A stretch of 64,000 bases of DNA, taken from IMG/VR virus record IMGVR_UViG_3300049491_000357, positions 1 through 64,000 of that record; one strand, written 5' to 3'. This stretch comes from a virus. This document shows positions 1-59,500 of this stretch, piece after piece. A program made the translations under genes and the position numbers. The notes beneath the pieces were generated by a model. It was given only the letters and a program-made list of their open reading frames with translations, had not been told where the DNA came from and did not search any database. Position 1 is the first letter of the stretch. Each line of letters opens with the position of its first letter.

Positions 1-569
1 AGCCCCTTGACATAGACTTTCTTCTTCGCGTTCTTCGGGTCTGGTTGCATACCACCCCCAAAGTCCCAATCTCGAACAAGAATGGCGTAGTTAAGAATGA
101 GTATGACCTTTTCTGGGCCCCCGTAGCCAGCCCAGGTTCGGTAGATTTCCTCCCGTTCCGCAGCAGAGCCGGAAACCACGAAGACCTTGATGCCCTCAGT
201 GAACCTCTCAGTCTCACTCTCCCACTGTCTGATGGCAGCCTTTGGGGCCACTACAATGACCTTGTTGTCTGGCTCTTTACCCCAACAATGACAGAGAGCC
301 GCCAATGCCTGAACAGTCTTCCCCAAACCCGTCCCATCACCAAGAATCAAACGCTTCATGAGCATCATATGCGCGATGCCCTGGCTTTGGTAGTACCTGG
401 GTCTGAAGGGCGAGAGCTTTTTATCCGGCCCCAAGACCTCCTTACGGAGCAATGGGGTATCCTTCAACGATATCGTTTTTGAAGCCCGGATCTCAAGCAG
501 TCTAGGGTAGAGTGCTTGAATCTCTGGGGCGTAGACTACACGAATCTCATCCGTCTCAGACGCCGTCAT
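1..569 (-). CDS. SNF2-family (SF2) helicase/ATPase, N-terminal part; runs off the left edge
   Basis: Absent from the ORF track because it has no stop in the window. Manual translation from ATG 569 gives MTASETDEIRVV...FRPRYYQSQGIAHMMLMKRLILGDGTGLGKTVQALAAL...KVIVVAPKAAIRQWESE, i.e. Q-motif, Walker A (LGDGTGLGKT) and motif Ia (VVAPxxxxxQW) typical of SNF2 ATPases. Confidence 0.88.
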   Translation of the reverse strand, partial: MTASETDEIRVVYAPEIQALYPRLLEIRASKTISLKDTPLLRKEVLGPDKKLSPFRPRYYQSQGIAHMMLMKRLILGDGTGLGKTVQALAALCHCWGKEPDNKVIVVAPKAAIRQWESETERFTEGIKVFVVSGSAAEREEIYRTWAGYGGPEKVILILNYAILVRDWDFGGGMQPDPKNAKKKVYVKG

Positions 570-604: not shown

Positions 605-1135
605 TCAAATTTTGCAGGACTTTGGTGGAGTGGGATCAGGCACGCCTTTCCAAAACGTAGAGATCAGAGTGACGGTGCCATTCCCTATGCTCTGAAACAC
701 AATCTTCAGCTTAGACTTACGATCCACCCATTCGATCTTGTGCCCGTCTTCGAGCATGCTCCCCATGTTCTCGAAAGCCTTGTTTTGGGCAGCCTTCCAA
801 GCTTCCATCTGCTTCAAGAAGTCCGCTAGGCAAGACCGCACATCATCTACCCGGATTGAACGAAGGTCCATTCTATACTGAGCATGGCTAGTGATCTGCA
901 CTTGCTTGATGGGCCCCACTCCTGGTTCACGGCCAACCACATAGACCTTGGCGGCATCAGGGTTTGAGAGGTCTTCCCCCTTCTCAACGTCTTGAATGAG
1001 GTCTTGCCTCAAGTTGGGGTTACGTACCGACTTATCAATGCGCTGGACCACCTGACAGGGCCCTCCAGGTTTTCCCAGCGGAGGGCTCAGGTCAGCTTGC
1101 AGATAACGCGAGACGATACGTTCTAGGTTGGCCAT
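605..1135 (-). CDS. Hypothetical protein with DUF4258-like (RelE/BECR-fold, possible RNase) domain
   Basis: Contains ITSHAQYRMDLRSIRVDDV...LKIVF...VTLISTFW, resembling the HAxxRMxxRxI motif and terminal strands of DUF4258-type proteins. ATG overlaps the upstream TGA (TGATG). Confidence 0.5.
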   Translation of the reverse strand: MANLERIVSRYLQADLSPPLGKPGGPCQVVQRIDKSVRNPNLRQDLIQDVEKGEDLSNPDAAKVYVVGREPGVGPIKQVQITSHAQYRMDLRSIRVDDVRSCLADFLKQMEAWKAAQNKAFENMGSMLEDGHKIEWVDRKSKLKIVFQSIGNGTVTLISTFWKGVPDPTPPKSCKI

Positions 1136-2241
1136 CACTTCATCTGAGCCGCTGCCGCTTCAAGTGTCTTCTGGACATCAGCCGGGAGACTCGACAGATG
1201 CTTGGCCATTTCGGTCAGGAATTTCTTCCCGTCTTTCGAACGAGTCAGATTCTTTTTGGTGCCATCATACAGGCGGTCCCCGAAGATAGCCCGCTTGAAC
1301 CCGCTTCGAAGAAACTTGCTTGTGTCTTTCTCGTCAAGCCAGTGAGCCTTGCCGTTGACAATCACTTCCACCCCTTCGAAGTCACTGGAGAACTCGTAAG
1401 GAGGCTTCCCGTACACGATCTTGTAGTGATTGGGCGCCTCATTCCACCCCCGAGTGTACTTGACCTCGATGACGTGTTTGCGTCCTTGCACCCGAGCATC
1501 GTCCTCAGAAACGGCACCAGAGCTGGCCAACCAGTGCTTGATGCTTGTCTCCCCCCCACGAGGGAACTTGTCAGAAAAGGTCCACCCCTTCGCGTCCGTT
1601 ACCTTGGAGTTGAAACGAGCTTCTGACCCTACCAGTTTCAGAACCTTAACCACATTCCCAAAAAGCCACGCTGGCTCCAGCCCCTCCTCCCCCTTGATAG
1701 GGAAGTCGAGCGATTTCATTGACCACAAGTCTTTCCCGCCAGCCCCCCCAACAAAGTACTCTTCCTTCACGAAGTGCCGGACGCCAACGAACACATGGGC
1801 ATGCTCTGTCTTACCGTAGACCACCCAAGCGATATCTGAACGATGGAACTCGTCAGAGGAGTACCCGACCCCTCTTTGTGCTGAGGTCACGAACTGCCAC
1901 TCCACCCCACTCGGGATGCCCGCCTTCGATTTAGCCTCGTCAAAAGAGACCTCCTCCTTTTTGGGGGGCTCCCACCTGGTTTGAGGTTGGGGGCTTGGAG
2001 ACGAAGGAGCATCAGAACGATCGTACGTGGGACGTTGCTTACCAAGAAGTACATCCTGAGCAACGTTTAGTTCCACCATTTTCTCTGAAGAGCCCCCTTG
2101 GTCAGGGTGCACCTTCATCACCTTATCCCGCAACGCTTTTCTAACTTCAGAGTCTGAAGGAGACTCATTAGGGGCAAACCCCAAAAGAGCCTTGGCTTCC
2201 TGAAGACTCATCGAGAGCAGGAGAAAAGAGTAATGGTCCAT
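1135..2241 (-). CDS. J-domain (DnaJ-like) protein
   Basis: N-terminal MSLQEAKALLG...EVRKALRDKVMKVHPDQGGSSEKMVELNVAQDVL with an intact HPD motif. Start is ATG 2241 or ATG 2211, not 2382. Ends TGA. Confidence 0.8.
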   Translation of the reverse strand: MDHYSFLLLSMSLQEAKALLGFAPNESPSDSEVRKALRDKVMKVHPDQGGSSEKMVELNVAQDVLLGKQRPTYDRSDAPSSPSPQPQTRWEPPKKEEVSFDEAKSKAGIPSGVEWQFVTSAQRGVGYSSDEFHRSDIAWVVYGKTEHAHVFVGVRHFVKEEYFVGGAGGKDLWSMKSLDFPIKGEEGLEPAWLFGNVVKVLKLVGSEARFNSKVTDAKGWTFSDKFPRGGETSIKHWLASSGAVSEDDARVQGRKHVIEVKYTRGWNEAPNHYKIVYGKPPYEFSSDFEGVEVIVNGKAHWLDEKDTSKFLRSGFKRAIFGDRLYDGTKKNLTRSKDGKKFLTEMAKHLSSLPADVQKTLEAAAAQMK

Positions 2242-2243
2242 GA

Positions 2244-2519
2244 TCAAGTCCCAGGGATGAAGGAGGCGGCGACGATTACGTTTGTGAGCGGTGATACCCC
2301 ACACCGGGCCCCGGTGTACTGAGTTGCCAGATAATCTGGTGCACCAGTCACTTGCCATGTTCTGTACACAACCCCACCGCAATCGGGGTCACGACCAACC
2401 ATGATGAAAACTGTGGCTTGGGCAACACCTTCAGCACCCGGCGTCAAAAGGAAAGAGCGCTGTGTTGATACGGCAGGGGTATACGACCAGGCTCTCAAAG
2501 TGCCATTCGTGTTTGCCAT
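2244..2519 (-). CDS. Hypothetical protein (91 aa)
   Basis: ATG 2519 (MANTNGTL...) shares its A with the in-frame TTA ending the upstream gene (TTATG). Ends TGA. Confidence 0.65.
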   Translation of the reverse strand: MANTNGTLRAWSYTPAVSTQRSFLLTPGAEGVAQATVFIMVGRDPDCGGVVYRTWQVTGAPDYLATQYTGARCGVSPLTNVIVAASFIPGT

Positions 2520-3670
2520 AACGATGGAACCACTCCGCTCCATTTAATGGCGAAAATCTCACCGGTTGAACAGACCATGTAATCTCTGGTGTTTGTTCCT
2601 GTAGTACTAATGGTATCTTTCTTGTTCCGACTCACCATGATGAGTTTGAAGAACGTGCTTGTCCCCTTCCAGCCTCTGGGTGCAGTTGCGCTGGCTATAC
2701 GAGCCCAGTTCATTCCGATGGCAACGTCATACCCAGAATAGGCGTCAACGCCAAAGAACGCTTGTGTTCCCGCCCCACCTTGACAGTACGGGCCGACAAC
2801 ACCAATAGTCACAAATCCTTCACCACCGAGTCCCTTTTTGTGGTATCCCTTGGTGAAGGATGTCGTGGTCGTGACTCCCATGTTACCCGATTCGTAGATA
2901 CCGAAACCAGCCCCGAAAACATAAGGGTCTACGTCGGCTGAATCGAATGTACCAGAGACCATGGGGTCCATGAAGACCCCGTCTCCGGCAGTCCCAGTCC
3001 CGTTTGCAATGAGGGCAAACCCATAGGGGGTCGCGTTATCACACGCCACTAGAGCGGTCATACTTGTAGCATCAACAAACAGCAGCGTCCCGGCTGCCGT
3101 TCCGTCAAGGATAACCTGACTACCGGTCGCTGTCGGAACTGCCGTGGTCGAACCGCCAGTGGAGAACGCAGTCGAGTACGAGTAACGGATATTCCAGTAT
3201 TGGTCGCCCGTTGTTCCGCGCTGAAAGACCAACTCACGATTTACGCTGTTGGCGGTAGGCATTTGGAGTCTGATCCAGGCACCAGAAGTTCCTGCAATAC
3301 CAGTCGTCGTCCACCAGTCATATGAAACGACACCACCGGTCGCAAGGGTGCCGGTTCCGCCTGAGCAGCCGGTAAACGTCGTAGCAGTCTTTCCTGTGTA
3401 GGTAATGGTCTGTGCTGCGTTGGCGTTATTGTAGATCGTGATTGTCCCAGATGTAGGGAAATTCGTGGTGCTGACCACATTGATTGTGGCCTGAGGAAGG
3501 GCTGCACCGTTTGAACCGGCAGCAATGGTCGTTGATTGTGTGAACGAACCACCTGACCCACTGCTAGAACCCATGAGCTTCCACCCGTTGGCCACCAGGG
3601 TGTCCTTCAGGAGCTTCATGATCGTGCCTGGGTCGGCCGCCGAAATGTTTGAAGAGTATTGAATAGCCAC
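2519..3670 (-). CDS. Thr/Gly-rich probable virion/tail-associated protein; ends at putative TTA stop
   Basis: GTG start with GAGGT upstream. Beta-rich T/G/S composition like phage fibre or decoration proteins. In-frame TTA at 2519-2521 after ...KWSGVVPS. Confidence 0.6.
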
Positions 3671-3677
3671 GATTACC

Positions 3678-4163
3678 TCACGAGTAGACTACTTTGAGTC
3701 CAGCCCATCGAATAACTGCGGCATCCGTGGGGCCAGGGGTTCCAGATGAAATTCGATATCTGACGTCGTATAGTATGGAACTGTTGGGGAGGGACGTGGG
3801 CACAACCAGGTTCGAGGTCACCAAAGACACAATTGAGTTCGTCGAAGTAGTCAGAGTGGCAGCAGAAACGACTGCCCCATCTGTTACGTTGAAAAGGGTA
3901 AACTCTGCTGTCATCCCAGAGGTCGCAAAGCCCAGGACCATGAAAGTGATGCCTCTGGTTGTGTTGCCTTGTGAAGTTGGGAAAGAAGCAGGATTGAACA
4001 GAATGCTGCCTGCCGAAACGTTGGAGGTTGAGTTTGTCGCTTGTGTCCCAGATACGGCAGGAAGGTCTTGAGAGGTCCCCAATGGCGACACATACAGAGT
4101 ATCTGTATCGGGTACAGCAGTCACCACGCCAGAAATTACAGCGACAGGTCGACGAGCTGTCAT
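3678..4163 (-). CDS. Hypothetical virion-associated protein
   Basis: 161-aa ORF, AAGGTG upstream, ends TGA, beta-rich, fits the operon packing. Confidence 0.6.
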   Translation of the reverse strand: MTARRPVAVISGVVTAVPDTDTLYVSPLGTSQDLPAVSGTQATNSTSNVSAGSILFNPASFPTSQGNTTRGITFMVLGFATSGMTAEFTLFNVTDGAVVSAATLTTSTNSIVSLVTSNLVVPTSLPNSSILYDVRYRISSGTPGPTDAAVIRWAGLKVVYS

Positions 4164-4200
4164 TGTACACCTTTAAGTTCAAGCTGCGTCATCTTCTTCC

Positions 4201-4800
4201 TCACCACAAAGCAAAAGATATAGCACCGTGGGGGTTATGCTGCCAAGAGCCCCAAGTCACAGCATAACCAAGGTACAAACCCATGTTTTTTGTGATATCG
4301 AAGCCAATTCCTGCTCCCCCAGCACGAAAACCGATATAGGCGTTTAGATTAGACCAAGAGAGGAAAAAAGGTTCGACCAGGACTCCAGCATCAAGTCCCG
4401 CGTACCCGTCTTTCTTGTCTAGGGCAACCAGCGGAAGATGCCCTATTGCAGCTTTGGGGCGAAAACGAAACCCATAGCTAGGCTCAACTCGTTGGGCAGC
4501 CTGCAAGGTCACCTGACCTTTGGCCTCAACCTCATAGTTACACCACTTCAGCTTGACTGTGTATGGCTTTGGGGCACTACCTGAGCCATAGATACGGCCA
4601 TCACGGTCGACCACGATGGTGATAGGATCAAGCTGAAGTGTTGGCGGAGTCTCATCTCGGCACTTGAAGTCTCTGGCTAGTCGTAGGAAGGTCTGCAAGT
4701 CCTCCTTTGCGACACACGTTGCCCCATCAGAGCACTCTTGTCCCCGAGCCTCAGAAGCGAACAGAAGAAGTCCTACGCACACCAAAGAACTAGGTTTCAT
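4201..4800 (-). CDS. Secreted/outer-membrane-like protein (signal peptide; C-terminal amphipathic beta strands ending in Trp)
   Basis: N-terminal MKPSSLVCVGLLLFASEARG signal-like peptide; C-terminal alternating strands (GAGIGFDITKNMGLYLGYAVTW...HGAISFALW). ATGA overlap with upstream gene. Confidence 0.55.
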   Translation of the reverse strand: MKPSSLVCVGLLLFASEARGQECSDGATCVAKEDLQTFLRLARDFKCRDETPPTLQLDPITIVVDRDGRIYGSGSAPKPYTVKLKWCNYEVEAKGQVTLQAAQRVEPSYGFRFRPKAAIGHLPLVALDKKDGYAGLDAGVLVEPFFLSWSNLNAYIGFRAGGAGIGFDITKNMGLYLGYAVTWGSWQHNPHGAISFALW

Positions 4801-5078
4801 CCTTGGTAGTCCTTTGATCCGAGGTCAAACTCTGACGCAAGAGCTTTCGCCTCTTTGTGGAACTTCTCGAATCGTTCCTTCAGGGCGGTAACTCTCTTGA
4901 AGTTGTCCTGTACATGCCTGTCGTGGGTTGATCGGGCCATCATCGCAAGCTGACTGTGGAGCCCCTTCACGGCTGCCTCCGCACGAACTAGATCGTGGTC
5001 CACTGTATGAAGAGCCCGAGCGGTGTTCTTCAGAACGTTTGCGGGAGAGTCCGCAGCTTGTCGACGATCGTAGGTCAT
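4797..5078 (-). CDS. Small helical hypothetical protein (MTYDRR N-terminus)
   Basis: ATG 5078 two nt after the upstream TGA; coiled-coil-like; ends TGA. Confidence 0.65.
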   Translation of the reverse strand: MTYDRRQAADSPANVLKNTARALHTVDHDLVRAEAAVKGLHSQLAMMARSTHDRHVQDNFKRVTALKERFEKFHKEAKALASEFDLGSKDYQG

Positions 5079-5080
5079 CC

Positions 5081-5359
5081 TCACACCCCTACGGCAATAC
5101 TTCCATCACTGTCCGCTTCGAGCCAACGAAAGACCGACAAGTTGATGAGATCCTTCAGTACGGCCTTGGACATACGAGGGTTACGTCCGATACCCTTGAA
5201 CTCAATGACGTACCCATGGTTTCCATCCCAGGCCACGTAAGGTCTGAACCCATTGGGGGAGAGAATGTCGATGACTTTTTGTTGTTCCTTGGGGATGTCT
5301 TTCAGATCAATCTTAGACGCACCTTGAGCACTGAATCCAGCTCGTCGATCGTAGGTCAT
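5081..5359 (-). CDS. Small hypothetical protein (MTYDRR N-terminus)
   Basis: ATG 5359 one nt after the upstream TGA; ends TGA. Confidence 0.65.
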   Translation of the reverse strand: MTYDRRAGFSAQGASKIDLKDIPKEQQKVIDILSPNGFRPYVAWDGNHGYVIEFKGIGRNPRMSKAVLKDLINLSVFRWLEADSDGSIAVGV

Positions 5360-5360
5360 T

Positions 5361-5888
5361 TCATTCCCCATACTTTTTCAGAAGGTCATCGACCTTCGAG
5401 GCCACTACACCAGAGGTATCTTTCACCGTGACAACGAATTTGTCTGGCTGAACGATGACCACCTTATCCACGTCTTTGGCTTGCACCCCGTCAGGAAGTT
5501 GCACCTCAATGAGCTTATCCGCCCCAGGAGGCGTGAACTCGACAGTAGTTGGATTTGAGAACAAACCAGGGTCCTTGATTGGGACTACTACAACTTGGGT
5601 AACCCCTTTCGAATCTGGGGTCCCGGGAAGAATGAGGTTCCCGTTCTTGTCCACACGGTCTGGGTCAACTGAGTTCGCAACATCCGCTTTGTGTTCCGGG
5701 TCTTTCTTCCCAAACAGCTTAGCCAAAAGACCCCCAATCTGTAGTTCCTTGGCCCCCATCGAGACAAGGAGGATGGCACCAAGGACCAACAGCAAAGCTG
5801 CCCCAGGAGCAAGAAGATTCAGGCCAATCCAACGAAAGACCATCTTCATCCGCTCCCAGAACTGGGTCCAGAATGAGGGTTTTTTCAT
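5361..5888 (-). CDS. Membrane-anchored protein (single N-terminal TM segment)
   Basis: Hydrophobic WIGLNLLAPGAALLLVLGAILLVSMG followed by a soluble domain; TGATG coupling to the holin-like gene. Confidence 0.6.
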   Translation of the reverse strand: MKKPSFWTQFWERMKMVFRWIGLNLLAPGAALLLVLGAILLVSMGAKELQIGGLLAKLFGKKDPEHKADVANSVDPDRVDKNGNLILPGTPDSKGVTQVVVVPIKDPGLFSNPTTVEFTPPGADKLIEVQLPDGVQAKDVDKVVIVQPDKFVVTVKDTSGVVASKVDDLLKKYGE

Positions 5889-6328
5889 CACGCCGCTGGG
5901 GGAAGTTCAGGAGGCGGAAGTTCGGGATTTGCTTCTGGTTCAGTAGGCTTTGGGGCTGGGGGGAGAACCTTGACCACAGACTCAGGGACTTGGTCGTTCG
6001 TTGCCATCGCTTTCAAGACTGATCGGAATCGGTTGTACACCCACCCCGAGGCCAACCCACAAGATGCCCCATAGAAAACCTTTGCCCACAGGTTGTCTGC
6101 CACCGGCATAGGCCAAGGGTAGGATTTGGCGAAGTACCCAAGGATGGCTCCCGTTCCAATGGGACCCATCGGAAGAAGTACTTCGGTCCACCACTTGTTG
6201 GTCTTTGATCCGCTCCAAGCAGTCTCGACAACTCGGCGGATACCATACGTGCCCAAGAAGATTCCCAAACACAGCAAAAGAGTCTGCCAGTTTGCGAAAA
6301 CCTCAAATCCCTTGTCGAACTGTTCCAT
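5888..6328 (-). CDS. Putative holin (about 3 TM segments, Pro-rich charged C-terminus)
   Basis: Three hydrophobic stretches (WQTLLLCLGIFLGTYGI; VLLPMGPIGTGAILGYF; VFYGASCGLASGWVY) in 146 aa, downstream of the tail-fibre genes; GAGGT SD. Confidence 0.55.
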   Translation of the reverse strand: MEQFDKGFEVFANWQTLLLCLGIFLGTYGIRRVVETAWSGSKTNKWWTEVLLPMGPIGTGAILGYFAKSYPWPMPVADNLWAKVFYGASCGLASGWVYNRFRSVLKAMATNDQVPESVVKVLPPAPKPTEPEANPELPPPELPPAA

Positions 6329-6350
6329 GGAGTTACCTCACCCCATGGAA
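6323..6350 (-). promoter_or_regulatory. Stem-loop covering the start codon and SD region of the holin-like gene
   Basis: Minus strand TTCCATGGGG-TGAGGTAA-CTCCATGGAA: 10-bp stem with one G-U; ATG lies in the 3' arm and GAGGT in the loop. Confidence 0.55.
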
Positions 6351-6352
6351 AA

Positions 6353-6361
6353 CGATAAAAG
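6353..6361 (-). promoter_or_regulatory. Candidate late-promoter motif CT(T/C)TTATCG, copy 1
   Basis: CTTTTATCG about 25 nt upstream of ATG 6328; the same motif occurs at 18963-18971 and 24546-24554. Confidence 0.45.
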
Positions 6362-6372
6362 GACCCGCTATC

Positions 6373-6678
6373 TCAGTCCGACTCTGCCACCGTCAACGAC
6401 TCAACAATAGTCACCTGATGGGCAACAGGGGCTTGCGCTGGGGCAGCAGAGGGTGGTGCCGGAAGAGCCTTCACGACAACGGGCTTTGCCTGTGTTTCAG
6501 GCAAAGCACCCTTTTCCCACAAGTCCAAGTTGAGCATAGCCTTGAGGGTATCGTTTTTTTGTTCGGCTGTTGCGAACGGATGGCTCAACAGTGCGGAAAG
6601 TCGGTGGCGAGCCTCGGCAGCCCCCTTTTTCCGCATGTCAGGGGGCAAGTCCTTGTAACTGATGTGTTTAACAGCCAT
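6373..6678 (-). CDS. Hypothetical protein (101 aa) ending in an ESLTVAE motif
   Basis: ATG 3 nt after the upstream TGA; helical N-terminus, Pro/Ala linker, C-terminal VTIVESLTVAESD. Confidence 0.65.
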   Translation of the reverse strand: MAVKHISYKDLPPDMRKKGAAEARHRLSALLSHPFATAEQKNDTLKAMLNLDLWEKGALPETQAKPVVVKALPAPPSAAPAQAPVAHQVTIVESLTVAESD

Positions 6679-6681
6679 GGT

Positions 6682-9600
6682 TCAAGGCCGAAGCGGCGGG
6701 AGAATTCGCCGCGTGAGGGTGATGTTGGACGGGTCAATCGTGACCTTTCGGAAGTCGTTCACGATGGGTTTCCCCTCGATGTGATACAGATCTGCGGCGG
6801 AGTTACCTTCTGCCGTACCGTTTGTGCTGACCACCGTGTACCACCCCTGAGGGTCTACAGGGCTTGTCAGATAGTATGCCGTCGTTTGAATGAGCATCAT
6901 CAGCTCGTTTCCGGCCGAAACCTCAGCAAGCCCAAGGTTCGTCACGGTGTTTCGAACGAGGTAAGCCCGTCCAACAAGTACGGTGACTCGTGTGTCAGCC
7001 CCTCCAGGAGGAGCATGCAAGGCACGTGGATAGACAGCAGCCACCTCACCTCCAGGGTAAGGACCAGAAGCCGCGAAAAGAGAGCCTCCGCGGTTTACAC
7101 GGTAGTTGGTAAGGAGCGAGTAGTTACCCTGGTTGCCGTCAACGTGGGCCACAAAAGTCCCAGTCGCTCCCCCAATGTCGGAGTTCCCCAATGGAATTTG
7201 GGTCTCCTCGACATTCGACTGTCGTTGGATCGAAGTGAACAAAGCCTTGAAGGTATCGTTGTGGTACCTGAATCCGGTTGCTGCATCCGGCATGTACGAG
7301 TTTCCACGGAAGTCCTTGTCGCGGAAGAGAGCCCCCAACGGAAGGCGTTCTGTGCACCCGAGATAGGATTGACCTGGAGGGAAACCTTCATCACCCTGAA
7401 GAGCATCCAGTTTGATGGGGGGACGTGGGGATACGGGGTTTGCAGGAGGCCAAGGTGCTGCATCCTTGGCCTCAAACCCGACTTGGCCTGGATTTGGGTC
7501 AATGCTGTACGACGCAACGGGCAGTCGGCCAGTACCCAAAGTTGTGGTGAACCCTGTCTCAGCCAACACCTCAAGCACTTTTTGATTGGGTCGGGTGAGT
7601 GCGTCCTGATTGAGACCTTGACTCATAAGAGCCACAACCTCTCCCGATTGAAGTGGGCCAGGCGCATATCCAATGTCTTGATACACCGTCTGGCTCCCCC
7701 ATGCATCGCCTTGGTAAGGCGTTCTGGAGAAGTTGATCAAGACCTCATCGGAGTTGGTCACAGGTGACGGGACAATCAACTCAGGGGCATCGATAGATGC
7801 CGTGATGTTTGACGCTCGAACTGGCGAAACCGCTTCCGAACGCTGGCGGCTGAGCACCAACCGGAATTCCTTGCTGTTATTGAAAGCGTCACGATCAAAG
7901 CCGTAGATTGAAGCCTCGATGACGTAGTTCCCAGCCGCAAAGTTCGCGATGGGATTCACGGTGGACTTCGTAAGGTCCAGTGCCTCCGCATTCAGGATGA
8001 ACGTCGAGTCCCCATCGTCATCAAGCTCAATCCAGAAGAGGGGGACGTCGCAGTTTTGACGAAGTAGGTTCTTGGCAGCCGAGAGTGATCCCGTTGGGGC
8101 TCGGTCTCCAGCCCCGAAGGCAGAACCATTGATCTTGTAGTCATTGGCTTCGTAGACCGCCCAAAGACGAGCGGGCCCATAGAACGGAGGTAGCTCCAGT
8201 CCCTGTCGCCCCAACCCACGAGGGTCTGTGAACTTTCGGATGCCCGCGTACTGCTTGCCTCCAAATGTGAAGGTCCCGTTGTAAGGGGCAGGGTTGGTGC
8301 CGGGCGGAGTGAGGTCTAGGGTCGAGAAGCTGGCGTAGCTAAATGCCCCATAGCTGAACGGGATGTAGTTCTTTTCGGCATTCGCGAATGGACCAGCCCC
8401 CGAAGGTACGTTCAGGAGGTAGTTCATACCCTGGCTGAACGGTACCTGGTCCTGCCAAAGGAGAGGCAGGTCGTACTCTCCCCAACTCGGGACAAGCCCA
8501 CGTGGGAAAGTGATGTAGATGTTCTTTGTGGCTGGCGTGGGATCTGTCGTTCCCGAAAAGATACCCAGCGGGTCTGTCGTCGTGTACTTGGGGGTTACGC
8601 CATCTACTTTGAATAGAGGCATGAGCCCCTGTCCCTTAAAGACCGCGAAGTTGGCTCCCACAAAAGTCGGTACTGGGCGATCCAATCCCACTGTGTCGTT
8701 TGGGACGCCAGTGGTAAAGATACTCGTGATCACATACCGTCCAGGCTGAGGACCACCCGAGATAACGATCGAGTCTCCGACAGCTGCACCTGCTGTGACA
8801 AAGTTGACGCCAGCACCCTGGAACTGAGATGCCGAAGCATTTCCAGTTCCCGTAGCGAACGAGGTAGGACGCTGATTTGGAGAAGTCCCATCGAATGTGA
8901 TAACGCTGTCTGGAAGGTCAATTCTCCGAAGTGGTTGGAGAACAAGCGTCTTTGACCCCAGATCTGTGTACGCTTCTGAGGTGACAGGGATGCGAGGGGC
9001 ATCTCCGTTAGCGTACTTACCCCAAAATGGTACCCAGGTCGTTCGAAGACTGAAGCTGTTCGTTGCAACTTGTTGCTGGTTCAACAGCAAGTCGGCAGAA
9101 GGGAACAGCAAAGAGACCGAGTGAAAACTATCTGGGCGGCGTGAGAGCCCTCGTCCTGCACCATAGATGCAGTGGACGACAAGATAGAGCCGTTGTGCTG
9201 TCGTTGGGAAAGAGGGGCCAAACGTAACGACAAGGTCATCCGAAGAGGTCGGATTCGTTGGGGTGATCGTGTAGCAAGAAGGATCAAGCGGAGACGTCTC
9301 CCCGTCAACACGGAGCGAGAAGTTTACTGCTTGGCCGTCGAACATCCAACGTACCTGGTCCGCATCGCCTCCAGGAAGCCCAGCCTTCAACTGGTTCACG
9401 GGGATGGTGAGTACGTCTCCGGCCCCAAAAACGTTACCTACGGACACCTTGGTGGTGAGGTTCACCTGAAGCGCCAAGGACCACGACTCGTTAACCGGGA
9501 CAGGAGCGGCAGCAGCCGTTGGCTTGACAATCACCTCAATTCGTTGAGGGCAAGCGGCATCCGAAAAGATCGACCTGATGTTATCAGGGCCGTCAAGTTT

Positions 9601-11079: not shown

Positions 11080-11712
11080 TAAGTAAAGAAGAGCCCAAGA
11101 AGCTACACGCAGTGGACGAGTCGGCAACGTGGTGACGTTGGTGAGACGTATGATGAACTGATTCCCCTGTCCAATCAAGGGGATATTGAGCATCCCCCCA
11201 TCCGTGGTAGGGTAGAAGTGGCCCCCGTTATCAAAGCTCACGTCACACGTGAAGTTCGACGGGCTACTCGCCTCCTCGATATACGTAGCCCCTACCCTAG
11301 AAAGTGAACTGTCGTTGTAGGCTAGGGAGAAGGTTTCAAAGGTTACCACGGCTTGACCGGGAGAGGCCAAAAGAGGAACTACCGTCGACTGGAACGTTGC
11401 CCCAGGGAAAATGTTGACAATGTTTCGGTCCCCAAAAGACCCGCTCACATTTGGAGCCCCTAGGTCCACGTCGATGAGATCAAGAAGATCATCAAAAACG
11501 ATGTTTGGGTATCCGGCATTGTAGGCCAAGAGCGCTTGGTGCTTCTTGGTAAGCAAATTGGACAAGTCGGCTGGATTTTGCACCGACAAATAGTCGGGGA
11601 CCCGGACAACGATGTTCCCGTTGGTTGTGGCATCAGGCCCCGACCGCACATCGAGAATCTTTGCTGTGGGGATCGGGTTACCAAACAGGTCAACCATGTA
11701 CAAGGTGCTCAT
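11080..11712 (-). CDS. Tail-associated protein; ends at putative TTA stop
   Basis: TGATG coupling at the start. C-terminus ...LRVASWALLY then in-frame TTA (11080-11082); standard-code TGA lies 4 codons later. Confidence 0.65.
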
Positions 11713-21204: not shown

Positions 21205-23796
21205 TAACACGCCCTTGTTGAGAAGGCGCCCTTTGATATTGAAGACTGCCGCAGTGGTCGTATTGATGAGCAAGGGCTCAAAGGAGACCCCATTATTGGG
21301 GTCAAAGAATGCTTCACGAAGCAGCAACACAAGAACAAGTTGGCCTGCATGCCCAAAAGTCGAACTTGGGATCAGTTCCGCAATCATCGGAACGATATTT
21401 CGGTGTCTCTTGGCGTCGGAGAGCTGCTGAGCAAAAGCATTGGGGATATACCCCACAGGGACCGACTTGAAGTACGAACGTCCTTCAATGTCAGTGTCCC
21501 CGAGTCCTCGATCAAAGGTCACTTCCTCTGGGGCAGGAGTGTACCCTACGAAGGCCGGAAGACGCAAGAGGCCGTTGGTAGAACTGAAGTCCGTCACAGC
21601 CAAGTCGGCCGAAGCTGAGAGTTCATGGTCTCCGTTGAACGTACCTACCGACGAAGGGTAGATCCCACCCATCTGCACGTAGTTCACAGGGAACGGGTAG
21701 GCTTCGTTTTCAGAACCTGACCCTACCGCAAGGCAATAGACCGCATCCCCAACAAATCGAGGGATGACCGTCAAGGTCGTTCCTAGAGAACTAGACCGAA
21801 TGGTTTGAGGGGCTCGTGCCTCGTAGTAGATCGTCATCTGCTCATTGTTTTGAGGCAAAGGACGGATCGCCGTATACGTGACCTGTAGGGTATCCCCAGG
21901 CACCGTAAAGTCGAGAGGATTGGTAAAGGTGACGTATCTCCCCGAGGGGTCGAGAAGCGTGCCTCCGATGATGGGCACAGCATTTTTGAGCACGGCGACA
22001 ATCGTGTCGACTCGCTCAGGCAACATGAAAAAGTCGTAAGGCCCTGGAGCCTCCGAGTTCGACTCAAAAACAGCCGTTGTGATGTTGGTCGTCACATACT
22101 GAAGCTGAACTTCTCTGTGCGGAGCGTCGATGGTATTGCTTGGGGCCAGGGCAGAAAAGCTGACTGGTGCCGCCGCAGGTAGTTGGCCCGGGTTGTTGAC
22201 AAAGAAGGAGCCCGCAAACGTGTCTGTGGGGGTTCGGGTAAGACCTTCGCCTCGCGGATAAGCCACCACCAAAGTCAAGTACAGGGGTTCGGTCGAGAGA
22301 CCAAACCCTACAATGTTGCCAACGGTTACGGTCAGAGGAGCAAGGGGCACCGTCCCAAAGCCCGTCACGCTGGTCAGCAGCATCTGACGGGTTACCTGAC
22401 CCGGTGTACCAACCCACCACCCATCAACCAGGTCAACGAACTGTACTCCAGCAGAGTTGTAGGCAGCCCAGTTAAAGGGGGCAAAGGGGGAGATCTCCAG
22501 CGCTGTAGGCTGCACAGTCACCACTGACCCGGGTAGCCAACCACCACCTGGGGCATTGATTTTGACTACGACCGTCTCATACACACACCGGTCTGAGAAG
22601 AACCGCCGGGTTGCATCAAACTGCCCGATCAACGTCCCACCAGGGGTATCCCCCGTGATGATCCCGTCTCCGCCGTTTGCGTTCGAGATACCAATCTCAT
22701 CCGCTGCAAAGACCGAGTGCCCGTCGTAGCCCCCGCCTTGTAGGGCGTTCGTCCACTCAGTACGGATCTTGTTGTCGAAAAGGAAGTTGAGATTCTTGGT
22801 TAGAATCTCGCTAAAATCCCACCCGTTCGGGGTCACACCCGTTCGGAGGTCAGCGATATCCCGAGGCACAAAGATGTCGTAGAACAAGCTATCTGGTCGA
22901 TCACTCGGACCAGGGGAAGCTACGCCGCCGTTTTGATTGGTGTTGCGATCAAAGGCATTGGAGTTACGTCGAAACACGACCGCCAAAGGGATCGCGTACA
23001 TGTACCCATCTACCGTACCAAGAGCGTTCGTAGGGATACCATCCCCTGCCCGCCAAAGACCTGCGTCCCCGGCTGCATCCTGGCTAACATAGGGGAAGAT
23101 GGTTGCAACTCCATCCGGGGTTGCAGCGTTCGGAGGAACCGAGTTAGCCACCACCGTAGGGTCATTGATGACCAGAGGGAACGCGAAAGGATCGACTCCC
23201 TGGATGACTCGAAGTCGATATTGAATCTGTACTCGTTTGGTAGACTCCGATCCCAACGTCGCATCTTTGATGTCATCAGGGAAATTCAGGAGGGCATCAT
23301 CTGCGGGGGAGATCTTAACGTTACCGTCTCGCCAAATACGACCTGACGGGCTCTTACCGTCAAGAGAAGGAGCTGCCGTAAGCAGCCGTCGCCAAACCTC
23401 CAACACGACGAAGTCAGCTCGCTTAGCCCCGGGGCCAACAGGGGCAAGCCCCATATCGATCGTGTTCGTCCCGTCGTTTTTGCCTGTGTTTTGGACAGGG
23501 ATGATCCACCCATTCACATGGGACAGAAGCGTAGGTGAGGCGTAAAAATTCGCAGTGGGGGACGGAAGGAAGATGGCCTCCGACATGTCACTGGAGGCCA
23601 AAAAGTCCGCCGACAGCCACCCAGAGGGCATGGCCACACGAAGAGCTAGTTGTCCTGCACCCCCATCAACATCCTGCTGAAGGTTTAGCTCTGTGTCGAG
23701 AACTGGCTTTCCGGCCTGAAATACAGTCGTCTCCCACGCACGACCATCCGGGTTCAGGTAGCCGCTTACACCAGGTCCGAAGTTTTTGGATCCCAT
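21205..23796 (-). CDS. Tail/baseplate structural protein, paralog of 6682..11007; ends at putative TTA stop
   Basis: MGSKNFGPGVSGYLNP...VFQAGKPVLDTELNLQQD matches the N-terminus of 6682..11007. In-frame TTA at 21205-21207 after ...IKGRLLNKGV. Confidence 0.75.
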
Positions 23797-23870: not shown

Positions 23871-24515
23871 TAAGAAGGAAAGCCGCCAGACGATCGTGAG
23901 CGTCGAAGTTGCAGGCTTGTTGATGACAGGAAACGTCAAGTAGTTGACCAACGTCTCTTTGGTGGTGAGGTCTACGGTAGGGTTGTACGGACCGTTTGGA
24001 GGAGAAACGGGGTTCTTGATCGACAGGTTCGTAGAGACGTTACCCCCGATGATCCCCATCTCAACCAAAGGTCCAACCGCCTCGGCTTCCGTGAACGTTG
24101 TTTGGAAGTCGACGACATTGGTCGGGATGGCTACCGGAAGCCCACCCCCGTCGATGAACTGAGTATTCGAGAAGGTTTTTCGAGTGATCTCAGCGTACAG
24201 GGCTCGTTGGGTGTTCGTTGGAGCCGGAGGAGCCATGGGGTTCCACCCGGTATCTCCTGTACCCACAGCCAAGCAAAAACACCCGTGAGGGGGTTCCTGC
24301 GAGTCCTTCATCAGACGTGCGATCAGGATCGAAGCATCCTTGACGACAAGATTCCGCTTCTCCCACTCATGTTGAAGCTCACCTGTAGCCCCGTCATGCA
24401 TCTTGATGAAAACGTCTCCCCGAATGTAGAATCGGGCGTTTTCATCGTACTTTGGAGATAGGACTACCCCCAAGTTACCTTCAGTGGTTGGAGAAAAAGC
24501 CTCGACATTTTTCAT
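23871..24515 (-). CDS. Baseplate/tail-collar-type protein; ends at putative TTA stop
   Basis: ATG 24515 (MKNVEAF) with GAGGG upstream. Motifs NLVV...LAVGTGDT...L..EITRK...EMGIIGG...TFPVINKPATSTLTIVWRLSF are typical of this phage family, which ends on the xWxxxF strand; TTA follows immediately. Confidence 0.75.
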
Positions 24516-24545: not shown

Positions 24546-24554
24546 CGATAAGAG
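24546..24554 (-). promoter_or_regulatory. Candidate late-promoter motif, copy 3
   Basis: CTCTTATCG about 31 nt upstream of ATG 24515. Confidence 0.4.
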
Positions 24555-31401: not shown

Positions 31402-31932
31402 TAACGTGATGGTCGAAGTGTACGTCACAGACAAGGTGTCGTTCGTGTTGAGCGTCCTTGTTGCAAACTGGACCTCATGAGCCATGACCCCGCCGACATT
31501 CGCATCGAAAACAGCGGACTTCTGTACGCCTTGTGGGGGGATACCGAGGTACGTGAACATGTAGGCGATCGTCGTCTGATTCGCAGGGACGATAGGCAGC
31601 GTCACCGTAGCCAGGGCTCGGGTCAACCCGCTACCCGCCAGCTCTGCGGGCAAACTCGTGTCTGTCGCCAGAGGAGCCGCAGCATCGTTCGACAGACCGA
31701 TGTAGTTGAACCCACCTCCAAGTGAACCACGGGTCGGAACCGAAGCTGCCGTGGCATAAATGTAGGCGTGGATTCGAACGAGTCCCGCATTGGTGACGAG
31801 GTTGTCAACCACCTGATCTTCATCCACCTGACGGTACACGTACAGCCCACGCTTCTCGTCGAAGTCGTATGCCTGCTCATGGTGGATTCGAACACGGGCC
31901 CTTGGACGAAGCGTTTCAGTGACGATATGCAT
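31402..31932 (-). CDS. Tail-collar/baseplate-type small protein; ends at putative TTA stop
   Basis: Strong SD TAAGGAGGAGG before ATG 31932 (MHIVTETL). Motif NLVTNAG...YIGLS...TDTSLPAEL...TLNTNDTLSVTYTSTIT, then TTA at 31402-31404. Confidence 0.7.
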
Positions 31933-36434: not shown

Positions 36435-36437
36435 ACA

Positions 36438-40700: not shown

Positions 40701-40946
40701 TAAGGACCCATACGTGAGCTTGTCCAGTTTCCGACGGAGAAGGTCAAGCTCTGCATTCGAGACCTCGATCGTGCCCCGAACCACTTCCTTCAGTTTCGTG
40801 TGGATGCCAAATTCGTTCTTGAACTGCCATTGAGCCCGTGGGGGGTCGGCATTTTCTTCCGAGCCCGATCCCTCCTCCGTTACGGGAGGGATCTTTTCGG
40901 TGTCTGGAGACTCGTCCTCCAATGTGGGATCTTCTGGGCCACTCAT
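40701..40946 (-). CDS. Small acidic protein (81 aa); ends at putative TTA stop
   Basis: ATG 40946 two nt after the upstream TGA; ...KLDKLTYGS then TTA at 40701-40703, 5 nt before ATG 40695. Confidence 0.6.
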
Positions 40947-56567: not shown

Positions 56568-59500
56568 TAATCTGTTCTTCATGGCAGCCATGTGCTCAAC
56601 CACGACATTTTGAGCTGTGGCTTCGACGAACTGCTTAAGATCCCCCTTCAAGGACAACTCCACTCGCACCTGACCACCTCCGCCCCCTCCTCCTCCGGCG
56701 GGAACGATACGTTCCCCCTTGCCAATGGACGTAAGACCCTCCCCTGGGGCAGGACTGATCTTAGCCAAACCTCCAGCCACAGACGATACCATACCTCCAG
56801 CTGCGTTGGCTTTAATGCCATACTCATCCTCATGTTTGCCCGCATACTCCCCAGCAAACTTCATAGCAGACTTGGGATCACTGACCCCACCTTCAGCGAA
56901 GTCATCCTTCCACCCCTTCACCTTGTCTGAGAAGGCGAGCATGGCGAATTCAAAGAGAGCCACTCGAAGAGAGTTGAGGGTTGATTCCTCAATCATCTTC
57001 GCCATTTGATTCTCCATGAAGGACTTGTTCAGTTTGATGCCCTTGTTCTTGAGGACGTTCTCAATCTCACCCAAAGTCCCCAGGGTTGCCTCCTGTGCTT
57101 CCACCCCAGTTTCCATGACTCCAGTCTGAGTTTCAGGAGCAGCGGTGCCTCCAAATGTGGCTTTGATGGCATCTTCGACATGAGTGTCGTGGGTGTATGC
57201 TGTAGAGTTTGTGGTTAGCGCCTTCCCAGCCTCTTCTGTGTTGGGGAGTGCCTTTGCAACACCATCTCCAACAGCGGCTGACTGTTCCTCTTTGGTGAGA
57301 GCAGAGGGGCCGCCCACTTTTGCTGTATCCCCCAATAGCTTAACAAGGTCTGTGGGCATCATTCCACCAAGAGCGGACTCACGCGCTTTGGCTCGATCAC
57401 CCCCAAAGTCAGAATCAATGTCTCCCTCCCCATAACGATCTTCAAGAGTCTTCTGAACCAATGCTTGTTTCTGATCTAGGGCGTCAGCTTCTTTCCTCAA
57501 CGCATCGCTTTTGGCTTTAGCTCTAGCTGCTTCAGGCCCAGTAGCCCCATATGCCTCTCGATCAACATCCTCAGCCTCAGCTCGTTTGGATGCCCCAGCT
57601 TCCCCCTTCGCCATCTTAGATAGCTTCTCAACCTCCTTGAAAGCATCCGTTTGCTTCAGCGCTTTATTTTGATCCCGCCAATCCTTGTTATCTTTAACGG
57701 CAGCAAGGATTGCAGGATCTTTTGTCTTTTGAGCCTCCATTTTTGTCTTAGAGGAAGAACTGGCCCCAGGCAATCCGGTAAGAGTTTCCCAGATACCAAT
57801 GATCGCTTCGTAGAAGGTGTGCATCATCCAGTCGATGAACACCTGAAGTTGCTCCATGATACTCTGGACCCGAGTGCCCATTCGCTTGTTAGCTTCCTCC
57901 TGGGCATCTTTCCCGTCGGCTGTATCTTTTGTGGCTTGGTCCATGGTGTCGTAGATCTTGGTCCAAGAAGCATCCTTCGCTTCTTGTGCCGACATCTTCC
58001 CCCGTTTGACCAACTCCTCTCGTTGCTCCGCAATCTGCTCTGCCATATTTTGGTATAGCTGACGCGTTTCATCATCTAGTCCAGCCAAGGAGTCACCGGC
58101 TATACTACCCAAATGTCCCTCATCGCTACCAAAACGTGTAGTTTCGGCATACTTGTGTTCAGCCGCAGCCACCACGCTAACTTTGGAGAGTGCTCTGGCA
58201 TTTCCTACCAAACCCCCCTTAGCCATTCTCTTCTCGGCGTTCAGGCTGGAGACGGCCTCCTTCAGGGTGCCTACCTTTGACTTATCCCCTGACTCAGCGA
58301 CCTTTTTGATCATATCTCGAACAGCGTCTTTACCCGCCGGGCCAGCTTCAAGAGCCTTCTTGACATCCTGGACAGTGCCCCCACCAGCATCTGCAATAGC
58401 CTTCGCGATGGAGCTGTTTTTTGATGCAATGTCCTCCGCAACAAGTTTGGCAGTCTTGGCAGGCCCTGCGAGTAGGGAGGACTTGACCTTGTCTTGGAAG
58501 CTAGCTCCCTTGTATGCATTCATAGCGGACTGCATGAATTTCTGAGCATTTCGTGGGCTCATCACCTTACCAAGCTTACCCAAAAGCTTGACCGCATCTT
58601 CAAGACGAGTGTTGTATAGACTAAGGTCAGCGGACACTCCTCGGATCATGGCGTAAAACTTATTGCTGGCGATCCCAGAATCTTCAGCACTTCTCGTAAT
58701 CATGCGAAACGAATCAACCGTCTGACCGAGACTTTGCCCCAGCTCAGTCATCATCTCAGCCTGGAAGCCCGTAACCTCCTGCAAAGAGATACCCATCGAG
58801 CGGGAGTATGCCACCGCTGCTTGAGTCACTGAGCCAAAATCCTTAGAAAACGCAGCGGACTTCTGGTTTAGTTGCCCAAACTGCTGCTCCAACGCCGTAA
58901 GCTGCACACCTTCCGCCTGAAGACTAGAAAGCACTTCTTTATGAGTGTCCGCAGAGATCCCCCAATCCAAGTTATTGGACGCATTGTAAGCTGACTCACG
59001 GATGTTTCTCAGTGAGTCATCCATCTTACTCAAGCCTTCCTCAACATTACCCATCGATCCCGAAAACCACTGAGCTGTTCCAGCAGAAGCCAAGATGTCC
59101 TTGTTGAACTCTTTGACCATGGCCTCGGCGTCAACGAACATCTTCACGAGCCCGAAGATCGAACCCCCCAAAGTGCCCAGAAGTGGCCCGAGTTTGGATA
59201 CGGTTGAAATGACCGGCCCCATCTTGCCTGCGATTGCCCCAAGCCCCTTAAGGGCTGCCCCCATCGCTGCTTCAGGTCCCCCACCCTTTGCTTGAAGTGC
59301 AGCACCCTTGGCGGACAACGACCCACCAACCTTGCTCAGCTTCCCACCAAGGTGTCCCCCGGCTGCCTTGAGGCCCCTGCCAGCAAGCTTAGCAAAGCTC
59401 TTCCCCGCCCCTTCAACATCCTTGTGCAACAAGGCTGAAAGCGGTTCAGCCAGCTCCTTACCAGCCTCAAGAGCGGCCTTCGTGAGTTCATTGCCACTGA

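What the first reader, a model, noticed from the sequence alone, without database searches (positions are those of the whole stretch)
2495..2521. TTATG stop/start overlap, the TTA analogue of TAATG/TGATG coupling
Seen: minus strand ...CCA TCG TTA TG GCA AAC: the A of the in-frame TTA is the A of the next ATG (2519). The window uses TGATG coupling at 1135, 5888, 11712, 47958 and 59984, so TTA occupies the slot of a stop codon. This is the most diagnostic single site, and it is not explained by a +1 shift onto TAG/TAA.
Basis: seen in the sequence. Interest (0 to 1): 0.7.

Follow-up and report, generated by a model that had tools for sequence, protein, structure and literature searches.

The report
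TTA acts as phage stop codon
In this uncultured giant phage the leucine codon TTA sits exactly where related phages have an ordinary stop codon overlapping the next gene's start, one site of a genome-wide pattern showing that TTA is used as a fourth stop signal, a change of the genetic code published so far only for mitochondria and plastids.

Summary
The site is real. On the minus strand the in-frame TTA (2521-2519) of a 383-codon gene shares its A with the ATG (2519-2517) of a conserved 91-codon gene.

All 6 full-length homologues of the upstream protein end at the residue before the TTA, and none has the LWQTRMAL tail. Three related contigs have TAATG, TGATG and ATGA at the same junction.

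Genome-wide, every in-frame TTA lies at an ORF edge. In a test anchored on the ends of orthologues, TTA fills the stop slot in 5 of 25 ORFs of this genome and in 0 of 265 ORFs of four relatives. Two related fragments at 40% and 49% GC also lack internal TTA. One of them has lost the tRNA-Leu(UAA) gene from its conserved place in the tRNA array.

No release factor or host was found, so the mechanism is inferred. I put TTA = stop at 0.85. The scan's earlier notes reached the same reading on this genome and on other phages. Those notes are leads, not evidence.

The parts
2519..2521 (-). TTA codon in the stop slot of the upstream gene (gene A). Its A is the A of the next ATG.
   Evidence: 6 of 6 homologues end at the preceding residue. 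Relatives have TAA, TGA or TGA at this position.
2517..2519 (-). ATG start of the downstream gene (gene B), overlapping the TTA by one base (TTATG).
   Evidence: The homologous ATG overlaps the stop in L003 (TAATG), L004 (TGATG) and L005 (ATGA).
2519..3670 (-). Gene A: 383 codons plus TTA. A virion-module protein of unknown function whose glycine/threonine-rich N-terminal part is shared with many ~600-aa phage proteins.
   Evidence: No Pfam or PHROG family. The Atlas gives only unnamed phage clusters.
2244..2519 (-). Gene B: 91 codons plus TGA. A small conserved protein of unknown function.
   Evidence: Homologues directly downstream of gene A in L003 (82% identity), L004 (49%) and L005 (51%; there it ends ...AAKFIP-TTA).
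2495..2518 (-). The 7 codons plus TGA that table 11 adds to gene A (WQTRMAL*). Read here as not translated in that frame; the stretch is the first 24 bases after the A of gene B's ATG.
   Evidence: The tail is absent from 6 of 6 homologues. Between the window and L003, the 4 substitutions in this stretch are all synonymous in gene B's frame. In gene A's frame 2 change the residue and 1 removes the TGA (read from alignment A3).
11080..11082 (-). TTA stop of the 210-codon gene 11080..11712.
   Evidence: 11 of 13 database homologues end at the preceding Y. The two with tails (the window and P0129) both continue with L. 4 of 4 relatives end there. The L004 orthologue also ends in TTA.
21205..21207 (-). 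TTA stop of the 863-codon gene. It removes a 67-nt overlap; the next ATG is at 21202.
   Evidence: Orthologues end within 0-3 residues of it in 4 of 4 relatives.
23871..23873 (-). TTA stop of the 214-codon gene.
   Evidence: Exact in 2 of 4 relatives and within one residue in the other 2.
31402..31404 (-). TTA stop. It removes a 16-nt overlap with the gene that starts at 31387.
   Evidence: Orthologues end 2-5 residues before it.
40701..40703 (-). TTA stop of an 83-codon gene, 5 nt before the next ATG.
   Evidence: The G002 orthologue ends exactly there, at 83 of 83 residues.
56568..56570 (-). TTA stop of the 1,139-codon gene. It removes a 175-nt overlap; the next ATG is at 56562.
   Evidence: The one hit that reaches the C-terminus (G005, 1170 of 1170) ends at the residue before the TTA.

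Best explanation
In this phage lineage UUA is read as a signal to end translation, not as leucine. Ribosomes translating gene A terminate at the UUA at 2521-2519. Because that codon shares its A with the AUG of gene B, they can restart at once, as at the UAAUG, UGAUG and AUGA overlaps that relatives carry at the same junction (termination-reinitiation coupling).

Shown here:
- TTA occupies the stop slot here and at several other genes.
- It is absent from gene interiors in three related genome pieces of 40-54% GC.
- More distant relatives still use TTA inside genes.
- One TTA-free relative lacks the tRNA-Leu(UAA) gene at its conserved place in the phage tRNA array.

Inferred, not shown: UUA lost its reader first (codon disappearance plus tRNA loss). 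A class-I release factor of the RF2 type with relaxed reading of the second base then releases the chain. That factor would be host-encoded, or phage-encoded in the roughly 80% of the genome not in this record. The precedent is the organelles where UUA is a stop (PMC12574857, passages read).
For: This site:
- 6 of 6 full-length homologues end at the residue before the TTA.
- The junction is TAATG, TGATG and ATGA in L003, L004 and L005.
- The start of gene B is conserved.

Other sites in this genome:
- The TTA lies one codon past the last aligned residue, while the relative's ORF ends at its own last residue, in 4 of 4 relatives at 78815, at 69655 (tail sheath) and at 11080.
- The same holds in 2 of 4 relatives at 23871, and in the single full-length hits at 56568 and 40701.

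Controlled test:
- The codon in the stop slot is TGA 14, TTA 5, TAA 1 and other 5 in 25 ORFs of this genome.
- In 265 ORFs of G001, G002, G004 and G005, TTA fills that slot 0 times. p = 3e-6.

Sheath orthologues: of 65 scored, the slot holds TGA 27, TAG 20, TAA 9 and TTA 1. The one TTA is in the closest relative, L112, at 84% identity.

Database homologues of the 210-codon gene: 11 of 13 stop at the slot. The 2 that run on both start their tails with L.

Interior absence:
- L005 (GC 40%): 0 internal TTA in 2,597 codons, where family members of like GC would give 26-63.
- G007 (GC 49%): 0 internal TTA in 8,134 codons, with 8 TTA all at edges.
- Both have TTA exactly at orthologues' stop slots.

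tRNA: Leu(taa) sits beside Thr(ggt) or Thr(tgt) in the arrays of the TTA-using relatives L196, L199 and L200. It is missing from that slot in L005, which keeps Leu(caa), Leu(gag) and Leu(tag).

A PHROG virion-protein family of 140 positions ends at the TTA that splits the apparent 335-aa fusion.
Against: - No machinery was found. There is no RF-1 domain in this record or in G001-G005. The one phage RF1-like gene found (G006, L196) belongs to phages that read TTA as sense.
- The host is unknown.
- There is no protein or RNA evidence. No RNA run holds the stretch.
- Depletion of TTA in this genome alone is weak evidence. The four relatives have only 1-6 TTA per ~19-21 thousand aligned codons, which gives P(0) of 0.27 to 0.0009.
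- 5 of the 11 TTA stops are followed by G and 1 by A, so a +1 slip onto TAG or TAA is not excluded at those sites.
- Most TTA stops have an ordinary stop 1-12 codons later, which would also suit a leaky signal.
- G006 lacks tRNA-Leu(UAA) among its 49 tRNAs yet uses TTA as a rare sense codon. Loss of the phage tRNA alone therefore does not make UUA a stop.
- Only 12.2 of the 14.0 kb of L005's contig could be read.
Confidence: 0.85

Rival explanations
1. UUA is an unassigned ('hungry') codon with no dedicated release factor. With no tRNA to read it, ribosomes pause. They are then released slowly by near-cognate RF2 action, by rescue systems or by slipping. The TTA sites would work as leaky or regulated gene ends, with the nearby ordinary stops as back-ups.
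For: tRNA-Leu(UAA) is missing from L005's array. No release factor was found in any phage record of the TTA-free group. Most TTA sites have an ordinary stop 1-12 codons downstream. Relatives carry tmRNA genes.
Against: The tail sheath, which must be made in bulk, ends in TTA both here and in L112. Stalling would be costly there. At 86386 there is no ordinary stop for 190 codons and the next gene follows in frame. At 56568 the back-up is 59 codons away, inside the next gene. TTA ends at least 11 of 65 genes.
Confidence: 0.09
2. The standard code holds. TTA is leucine, gene A really ends at the TGA at 2495 with an 8-residue tail that overlaps gene B by 25 nt, and this is a harmless TAA-to-TTA stop-loss mutation.
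For: A single base separates TTA from the TAA of L003. An in-frame TGA follows 7 codons later. TTA is rare in the whole phage family, so few internal TTA are expected anyway.
Against: It would need the same specific stop-loss in at least 11 of 65 genes, with no comparable excess of any other sense codon in the stop slot: 5 TTA against single ATC, AAA and TGC on the coding strand. There are none in 265 ORFs of relatives. It would fuse two genes at 86386. It does not explain 0 internal TTA at 40% and 49% GC. The tail is not conserved, and its substitutions are synonymous only in gene B's frame.
Confidence: 0.04
3. Artefact: an assembly or base-calling error, or a modified base read as T, turns real TAA stops into TTA.
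For: TTA and TAA differ by one base. The record is a metagenome assembly.
Against: An independent Logan assembly of X1 agrees over 2082-7885 with 0 differences. Runs X2 and X3, from another study, show in total 1 and 4 differences from the window, none of them A>T. The same pattern appears in contigs from other samples and projects (L004, L005, L112, G007). An error would not remove TTA from gene interiors.
Confidence: 0.01

Closest known systems
UUA = stop in labyrinthulean (Thraustochytrium) mitochondria and in peDinoflagellate plastids (PMC12574857, passages read; 'NCBI table 23' is recalled, not from a call)
   Same: UUA is absent inside genes and found where homologues have stop codons. 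Apparent gene fusions resolve when it is read as a stop. There is no cognate tRNA gene (here: missing from L005's array).
   Different: Those are organelle genomes, and the change is tied to a Ser204 substitution in the organellar RF2. Here it is a giant phage of an unknown host and no release factor was found. UCA, also a stop in the plastids, stays a sense codon here (195 in-frame TCA).
UUA and UUG = stop in Marsupiomonadales and Pseudoscourfieldia mitochondria, via altered mtRF1a (PMC12574857 and PMC6821328, passages read)
   Same: A leucine-to-stop change of the UUR box, with loss of the tRNA.
   Different: UUG remains an abundant sense and start codon here (403 in frame). L005 keeps tRNA-Leu(CAA).
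Overlapping stop/start junctions (TAATG, TGATG, ATGA) used for translational coupling in bacteria and phages (established knowledge)
   Same: Same geometry, same strand, and the same junction in relatives. There are five TGATG elsewhere in the window.
   Different: The terminating codon is TTA.
Stop-codon recoding in phages (TAG or TGA read as an amino acid; crAss-like and Lak phages). PMC7886860 and PMC8346664: search listing and start of abstracts only.
   Same: A phage-associated departure from the standard code in large phages with their own tRNA sets. Relatives here carry suppressor-type tRNAs.
   Different: The direction is opposite (sense to stop). No in-frame TAA, TAG or TGA is needed to read this genome's genes.
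bldA-type control by rare TTA codons in Streptomyces (recalled, no call)
   Same: TTA is very rare, and its decoding is a special case.
   Different: There TTA is a sense codon that can lie anywhere in a gene of a high-GC genome. Here it lies only in stop slots, also at 40% GC.

Membership tests
Genetic codes with UUA as a termination codon (sense-to-stop) | UUA absent from internal, conserved positions of coding sequences | tested here: met
   Among 24,468 codons of this genome aligned to relatives there are 5 TTA, all at ORF edges. L005 has 0 in 2,597 codons at 40% GC and G007 has 0 in 8,134 at 49% GC.
Genetic codes with UUA as a termination codon (sense-to-stop) | UUA found where homologues have a termination codon | tested here: met
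   This site: 6 of 6 homologues and 3 of 3 DNA junctions. Genome-wide: 5 of 25 against 0 of 265.
Genetic codes with UUA as a termination codon (sense-to-stop) | No tRNA able to read UUA | tested here: inconclusive
   There are no tRNA genes in this 86.8-kb record. L005's array lacks Leu(taa) at its syntenic slot, but 1.9 kb of that contig is unseen. The host's tRNAs are unknown.
Genetic codes with UUA as a termination codon (sense-to-stop) | Release factor altered in the codon-reading loop (RF2 Ser204 / SPF in the organelle cases) | not testable with these tools
   No RF-1 domain in G000 or G001-G005. The host is not identified. CheckV rates the record 18% complete.
Genetic codes with UUA as a termination codon (sense-to-stop) | Protein C-termini shown to end before UUA | not testable with these tools
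   Needs proteomics. No RNA holder is listed either.
Stop/start overlap for translational coupling | Stop codon of the upstream gene shares bases with the start codon of the downstream gene on the same strand | tested here: met
   TTATG at 2521-2517. This is met only if TTA is the stop. Relatives have TAATG, TGATG and ATGA.
bldA-like rare-TTA regulation | TTA is a sense codon scattered within regulated genes, in a high-GC genome with a tRNA-Leu(UAA) | tested here: not met
   TTA occurs only at ORF edges. The pattern holds at 40% GC. The tRNA is absent from L005's array.
Stop-to-sense recoded phages (TAG or TGA as amino acid) | In-frame standard stop codons inside conserved genes | tested here: not met
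   All long genes are open under table 11. No convincing same-frame ORF pair is split by TAA, TAG or TGA.

The most novel reading that the evidence does not exclude
The four-stop code is carried by the virus and not inherited from a recoded host. TTA-stop phages of this lineage span 40-65% GC, which suggests different hosts. They bring large tRNA sets of their own, and at least one has dropped tRNA-Leu(UAA) from that set. A phage-borne, still unidentified activity would then silence the cell's UUA reader and release chains at UUA. That would give a virus its own sense-to-stop genetic code during infection.
Probability: 0.25. Interest if true: 0.95.

Novelty: new variant of a known kind. Interest (0 to 1): 0.85.

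Why it matters
**Novelty.** Changes that turn an amino-acid codon into a stop are published only for organelles. The 2025 plastid case is called there the first outside mitochondria (PMC12574857, passage read). My four full-text searches found none for a phage or a bacterium.

**Annotation.** A phage lineage that ends a sixth or more of its genes with TTA means standard gene callers mis-annotate it. They add false tails, create false overlaps of 16-175 nt and fuse genes. Tools such as Codetta cannot see this, by their authors' own statement (PMC9825746).

**Tractability.** It offers a testable case of how a sense codon becomes a stop in a bacterial-type translation system. Close relatives still read TTA as leucine (G006 against G007, 60-80% protein identity), so the steps (codon loss, tRNA loss, release-factor change) can be ordered.

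**Use.** It is also of interest for engineered codes and for phage-host incompatibility.

Tried and rejected
**Searches that gave nothing usable**
- DNA of 1135-6700 against GenBank phages: no match.
- Gene A alone against IMG/VR: none. The gene A alignment there gave only two irrelevant loci, L001 and L002, which I kept as codon-usage controls.
- P0131 (on a 385-kb NCBI contig) against GenBank phages: none. The cluster look-up gave no names or accessions.
- Pfam and PHROGs gave nothing for genes A and B. The Atlas gave unnamed phage clusters for A and nothing for B.

**Host**
- The one scan of species genomes with the gene A alignment hit only a repeat domain (residues ~40-130) in 13 MAG contigs.
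- Those loci have TTA inside long ORFs, or too few TTA to judge.
- RF2 of the 5 genomes I checked has the ordinary SPF loop, 5 of 5.
- The sheath profile found nothing in 401 genomes of the phylum of G011 (its record title names Myxococcota) or in 401 of the phylum of G012 (title: Acidimicrobiales). The tool itself warns that an empty answer shows nothing.
- The nearest cultured relative of the sheath is Tunturiibacter phage Tunturi_5 at 33% identity. That is too far to name a host.

**Machinery**
- No RF-1 domain in this record or in G001-G005.
- The truncated RF1-like gene of G006 looked promising. It is shared with L196, and both phages read TTA as sense, so I dropped it as the cause.
- The 73-nt spacer at the empty tRNA slot of L005 shows no remnant of tRNA-Leu(UAA): local score 7-9 against a shuffled maximum of 10-13.

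**Expression:** no RNA holder listed.

**Ideas rejected**
- A TAA/TTA swap of meaning: TAA still ends genes that are followed by spacers.
- RF1-independent termination as a general rule: L005 ends 9 of 16 genes in TAA.
- Huge phages L009-L028 as kin of the TTA-free group: they use TTA at 12-60 per 1,000 codons.

**Rows left out before counts**
- In one search, 15 of the 80 sheath loci were left out because the match stopped short of the last residues. L115, which ended at residue 1407, was kept and counts among 'other'.
- In one search only hits with at least 100 bits and at least 30% identity were used.

Supplementary files of papers were not asked for. They may hold codon tables that bear on the literature claim.

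Full report
**1. The observation**

Read on the minus strand, window 2530-2495 is GTT CCA TCG TTA TGG CAA ACA CGA ATG GCA CTT TGA.
- Under table 11 this is the end of ORF 2495..3670 (391 aa...VVPSLWQTRMAL).
- The TTA is 2521-2519. Its A begins an ATG (2519-2517) that is in frame with ORF 2244..2543 and gives a 91-residue protein.
- With TTA read as a stop, gene A is 2519..3670 (383 aa).
- An independent assembly of run X1 matches 2082-7885 without a difference.

**2. What the window is**
- The window is the first 64 kb of one 86,838-bp IMG/VR virus record. GC is 54.4%, nearly all genes lie on the minus strand, and there are no tRNA genes. CheckV rates it 18% complete.
- Few genes match a family: a helicase, a minor tail protein, a virion protein and a weak DnaJ domain in the gene after gene B.
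- The 1,411-aa protein at 69655..73890 is a tail sheath by its annotated relatives.
- Most genes have orthologues at 30-75% identity in IMG/VR records of 111-529 kb (G001, G002, G004, G005). This is therefore a piece of a giant phage.

**3. The junction in relatives**
- A database search found six full-length homologues of gene A at 63-86% identity. All six end at ...WSG[VA]VP[SA], the residue before the TTA, and none has the tail.
- Three metagenome contigs hold the junction as DNA: L003 (79% identity) ...GCG TAATG GCG..., L004 (67%) ...GCC TGATG GCT..., and L005 (63%) ...GCATGA CAA....
- Gene B follows in all three and starts at that ATG.
- Between the window and L003 there are four substitutions in the 24 bases after the TTA. 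All four are silent in gene B's frame. In gene A's frame two change the residue and one removes the TGA (read).
- The TTG at 2498, which would make a TTGA overlap with the table-11 stop, is CTG in L003.

**4. The same thing genome-wide**
- In 36 long minus-strand ORFs of the window (20,845 codons) there are 11 in-frame TTA. Seven lie 4-60 codons before the table-11 stop. Four lie 12-84 codons after the first possible start, upstream of the likely true start. The other two frames hold 189 and 103 TTA, and CTA occurs 153 times in frame.
- The remaining 23 kb shows the same pattern.
- Reading TTA as a stop removes overlaps of 67, 16 and 175 nt and splits a 335-aa 'fusion'. The first half of that fusion matches a 140-position virion-protein family to its end.
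- A simple gene call gives TGA 41, TTA 11, TAA 8 and TAG 5 in 65 genes.
- Against the four relatives, the TTA lies one codon past the last aligned residue, where the relative's ORF ends, in 4 of 4 relatives at 78815, at 69655 and at 11080. Other sites are exact or within a few residues.
- In an all-against-all version with controls, the codon in that slot was TTA in 5 of 25 ORFs here and in 0 of 265 ORFs of the relatives. p = 3e-6.
- Of 13 database homologues of the 210-codon gene, 11 stop at the slot. The two that run on begin their tails with L.
- Of 65 sheath orthologues, one has TTA in the slot, and it is the closest (L112).

**5. How strong the depletion is**

For this genome alone it is modest. 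The four relatives (GC 58-64%) have only 1-6 TTA per ~19-21 thousand aligned codons, and those are scattered inside long genes. The expectation here is therefore 1-7 by their rates, or 75 by the rate of L008 at GC 52%.

The strong cases are two relatives of lower GC.
- L005 (40% GC) has no internal TTA in 2,597 codons. Family members of like GC would give 26-63.
- G007 (49% GC) has none in 8,134 codons.
- Both have TTA exactly at orthologues' stop slots.
- G006 shares 60-80% protein identity with G007 and still has TTA inside conserved genes, with none in stop slots. The change is therefore recent within the group.

**6. Machinery**
- L005 carries 22 tRNA genes. For UUR it has Leu(caa) only.
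- In L196, L199 and L200, which use TTA, a Leu(taa) gene sits next to Thr(ggt) or Thr(tgt). In the syntenic array of L005 that slot is a 73-nt spacer with no remnant.
- No release-factor domain is present in this record or in G001-G005.
- G006 and L196 have a truncated RF1-like gene, but both read TTA as sense.
- The host is unknown.

How UUA is read is therefore inference. The published organelle cases point to an RF2 whose codon-reading serine is replaced (PMC12574857).

**7. Literature**

Full-text searches for TTA or UUA with stop-codon reassignment, sense-to-stop and phage terms found only organelle cases. I read passages of PMC12574857, PMC6821328 and PMC9825746. Other papers I saw only as listings.

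**8. Earlier notes of this scan**

Notes on this genome and on other phages report the same reading, and some name candidate host lineages. I used them as leads only. Everything claimed above rests on my own calls. The host leads were not confirmed for this phage.

**9. Verdict**

TTA most likely ends translation in this phage, and TTATG is a stop/start overlap. My confidence is 0.85. What remains open is the mechanism, and whether the code belongs to the phage or to its host.

Noticed in passing
G004 123254-123328; G001 282622-282713; G006 288775-288850 and 228801-228949; L194: Relatives that read TTA as sense carry suppressor-type tRNAs: anticodon UUA (reads UAA) in G004, G001, G006 and L194, and two with anticodon CUA in G006. 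G006 ends 133 of 169 long ORFs in TGA. Whether TAA or TAG is read through there was not examined.
   Followed up: no
G006 260529-261056 (-) = L240 1453-1980; L196 3134-3790: A truncated RF1-like gene. It has the end of the PCRF domain plus the RF-1 domain, matches prfA profile positions 157-330 of 347, has a PPT loop, and has Q where RF1 has a conserved H. An in-frame TTA sits at the conserved VAV[L] position. In L196 a second piece matches in another frame, which hints at a frameshift.
   Followed up: partly
G006 c[265523-265618]; L200 tRNA array: ARAGORN calls two tRNAs with four-base anticodons, (gttc) and (gaag).
   Followed up: no
G004 175160-175517; G006 c[162403-162774]: Phage-encoded tmRNA genes with the tags ANDNGTVITALKAAA and ANDNGVAPLALAA.
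   Followed up: no
window 24549-24551 (minus strand): A TTA in the spacer between the TGA at 24565 and the ATG at 24515 lines up with a TTA in G004 and G001. It may be part of a conserved upstream signal and not a codon.
   Followed up: no
window 5076-5369 and 6370-6497: A ~90% identical relative in activated-sludge runs (X4). It lacks 292 nt that cover the small gene 5081..5371, and it has 125 other letters at 6370-6497.
   Followed up: no
window 12576-12578: The TAA that ends the 2,119-codon gene is followed in the same frame by the 244-codon gene, which starts 43 codons later. This is probably coincidence.
   Followed up: no
window 1135-2241 and 3-569 (minus strand): After gene B come a protein with a weak DnaJ domain (25.5 bits, below Pfam's cut-off) and, at the window's start, the N-terminus of an SNF2-like helicase, named by eye from its motifs.
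   Followed up: partly
G006, many ORF starts (e.g. 35830-36744, 70336-73404, 137055-140129): In G006 many stop-to-stop frames have a TTA within the first two codons after the preceding in-frame stop. This suggests a TTA-containing motif in the spacers before genes.
   Followed up: no
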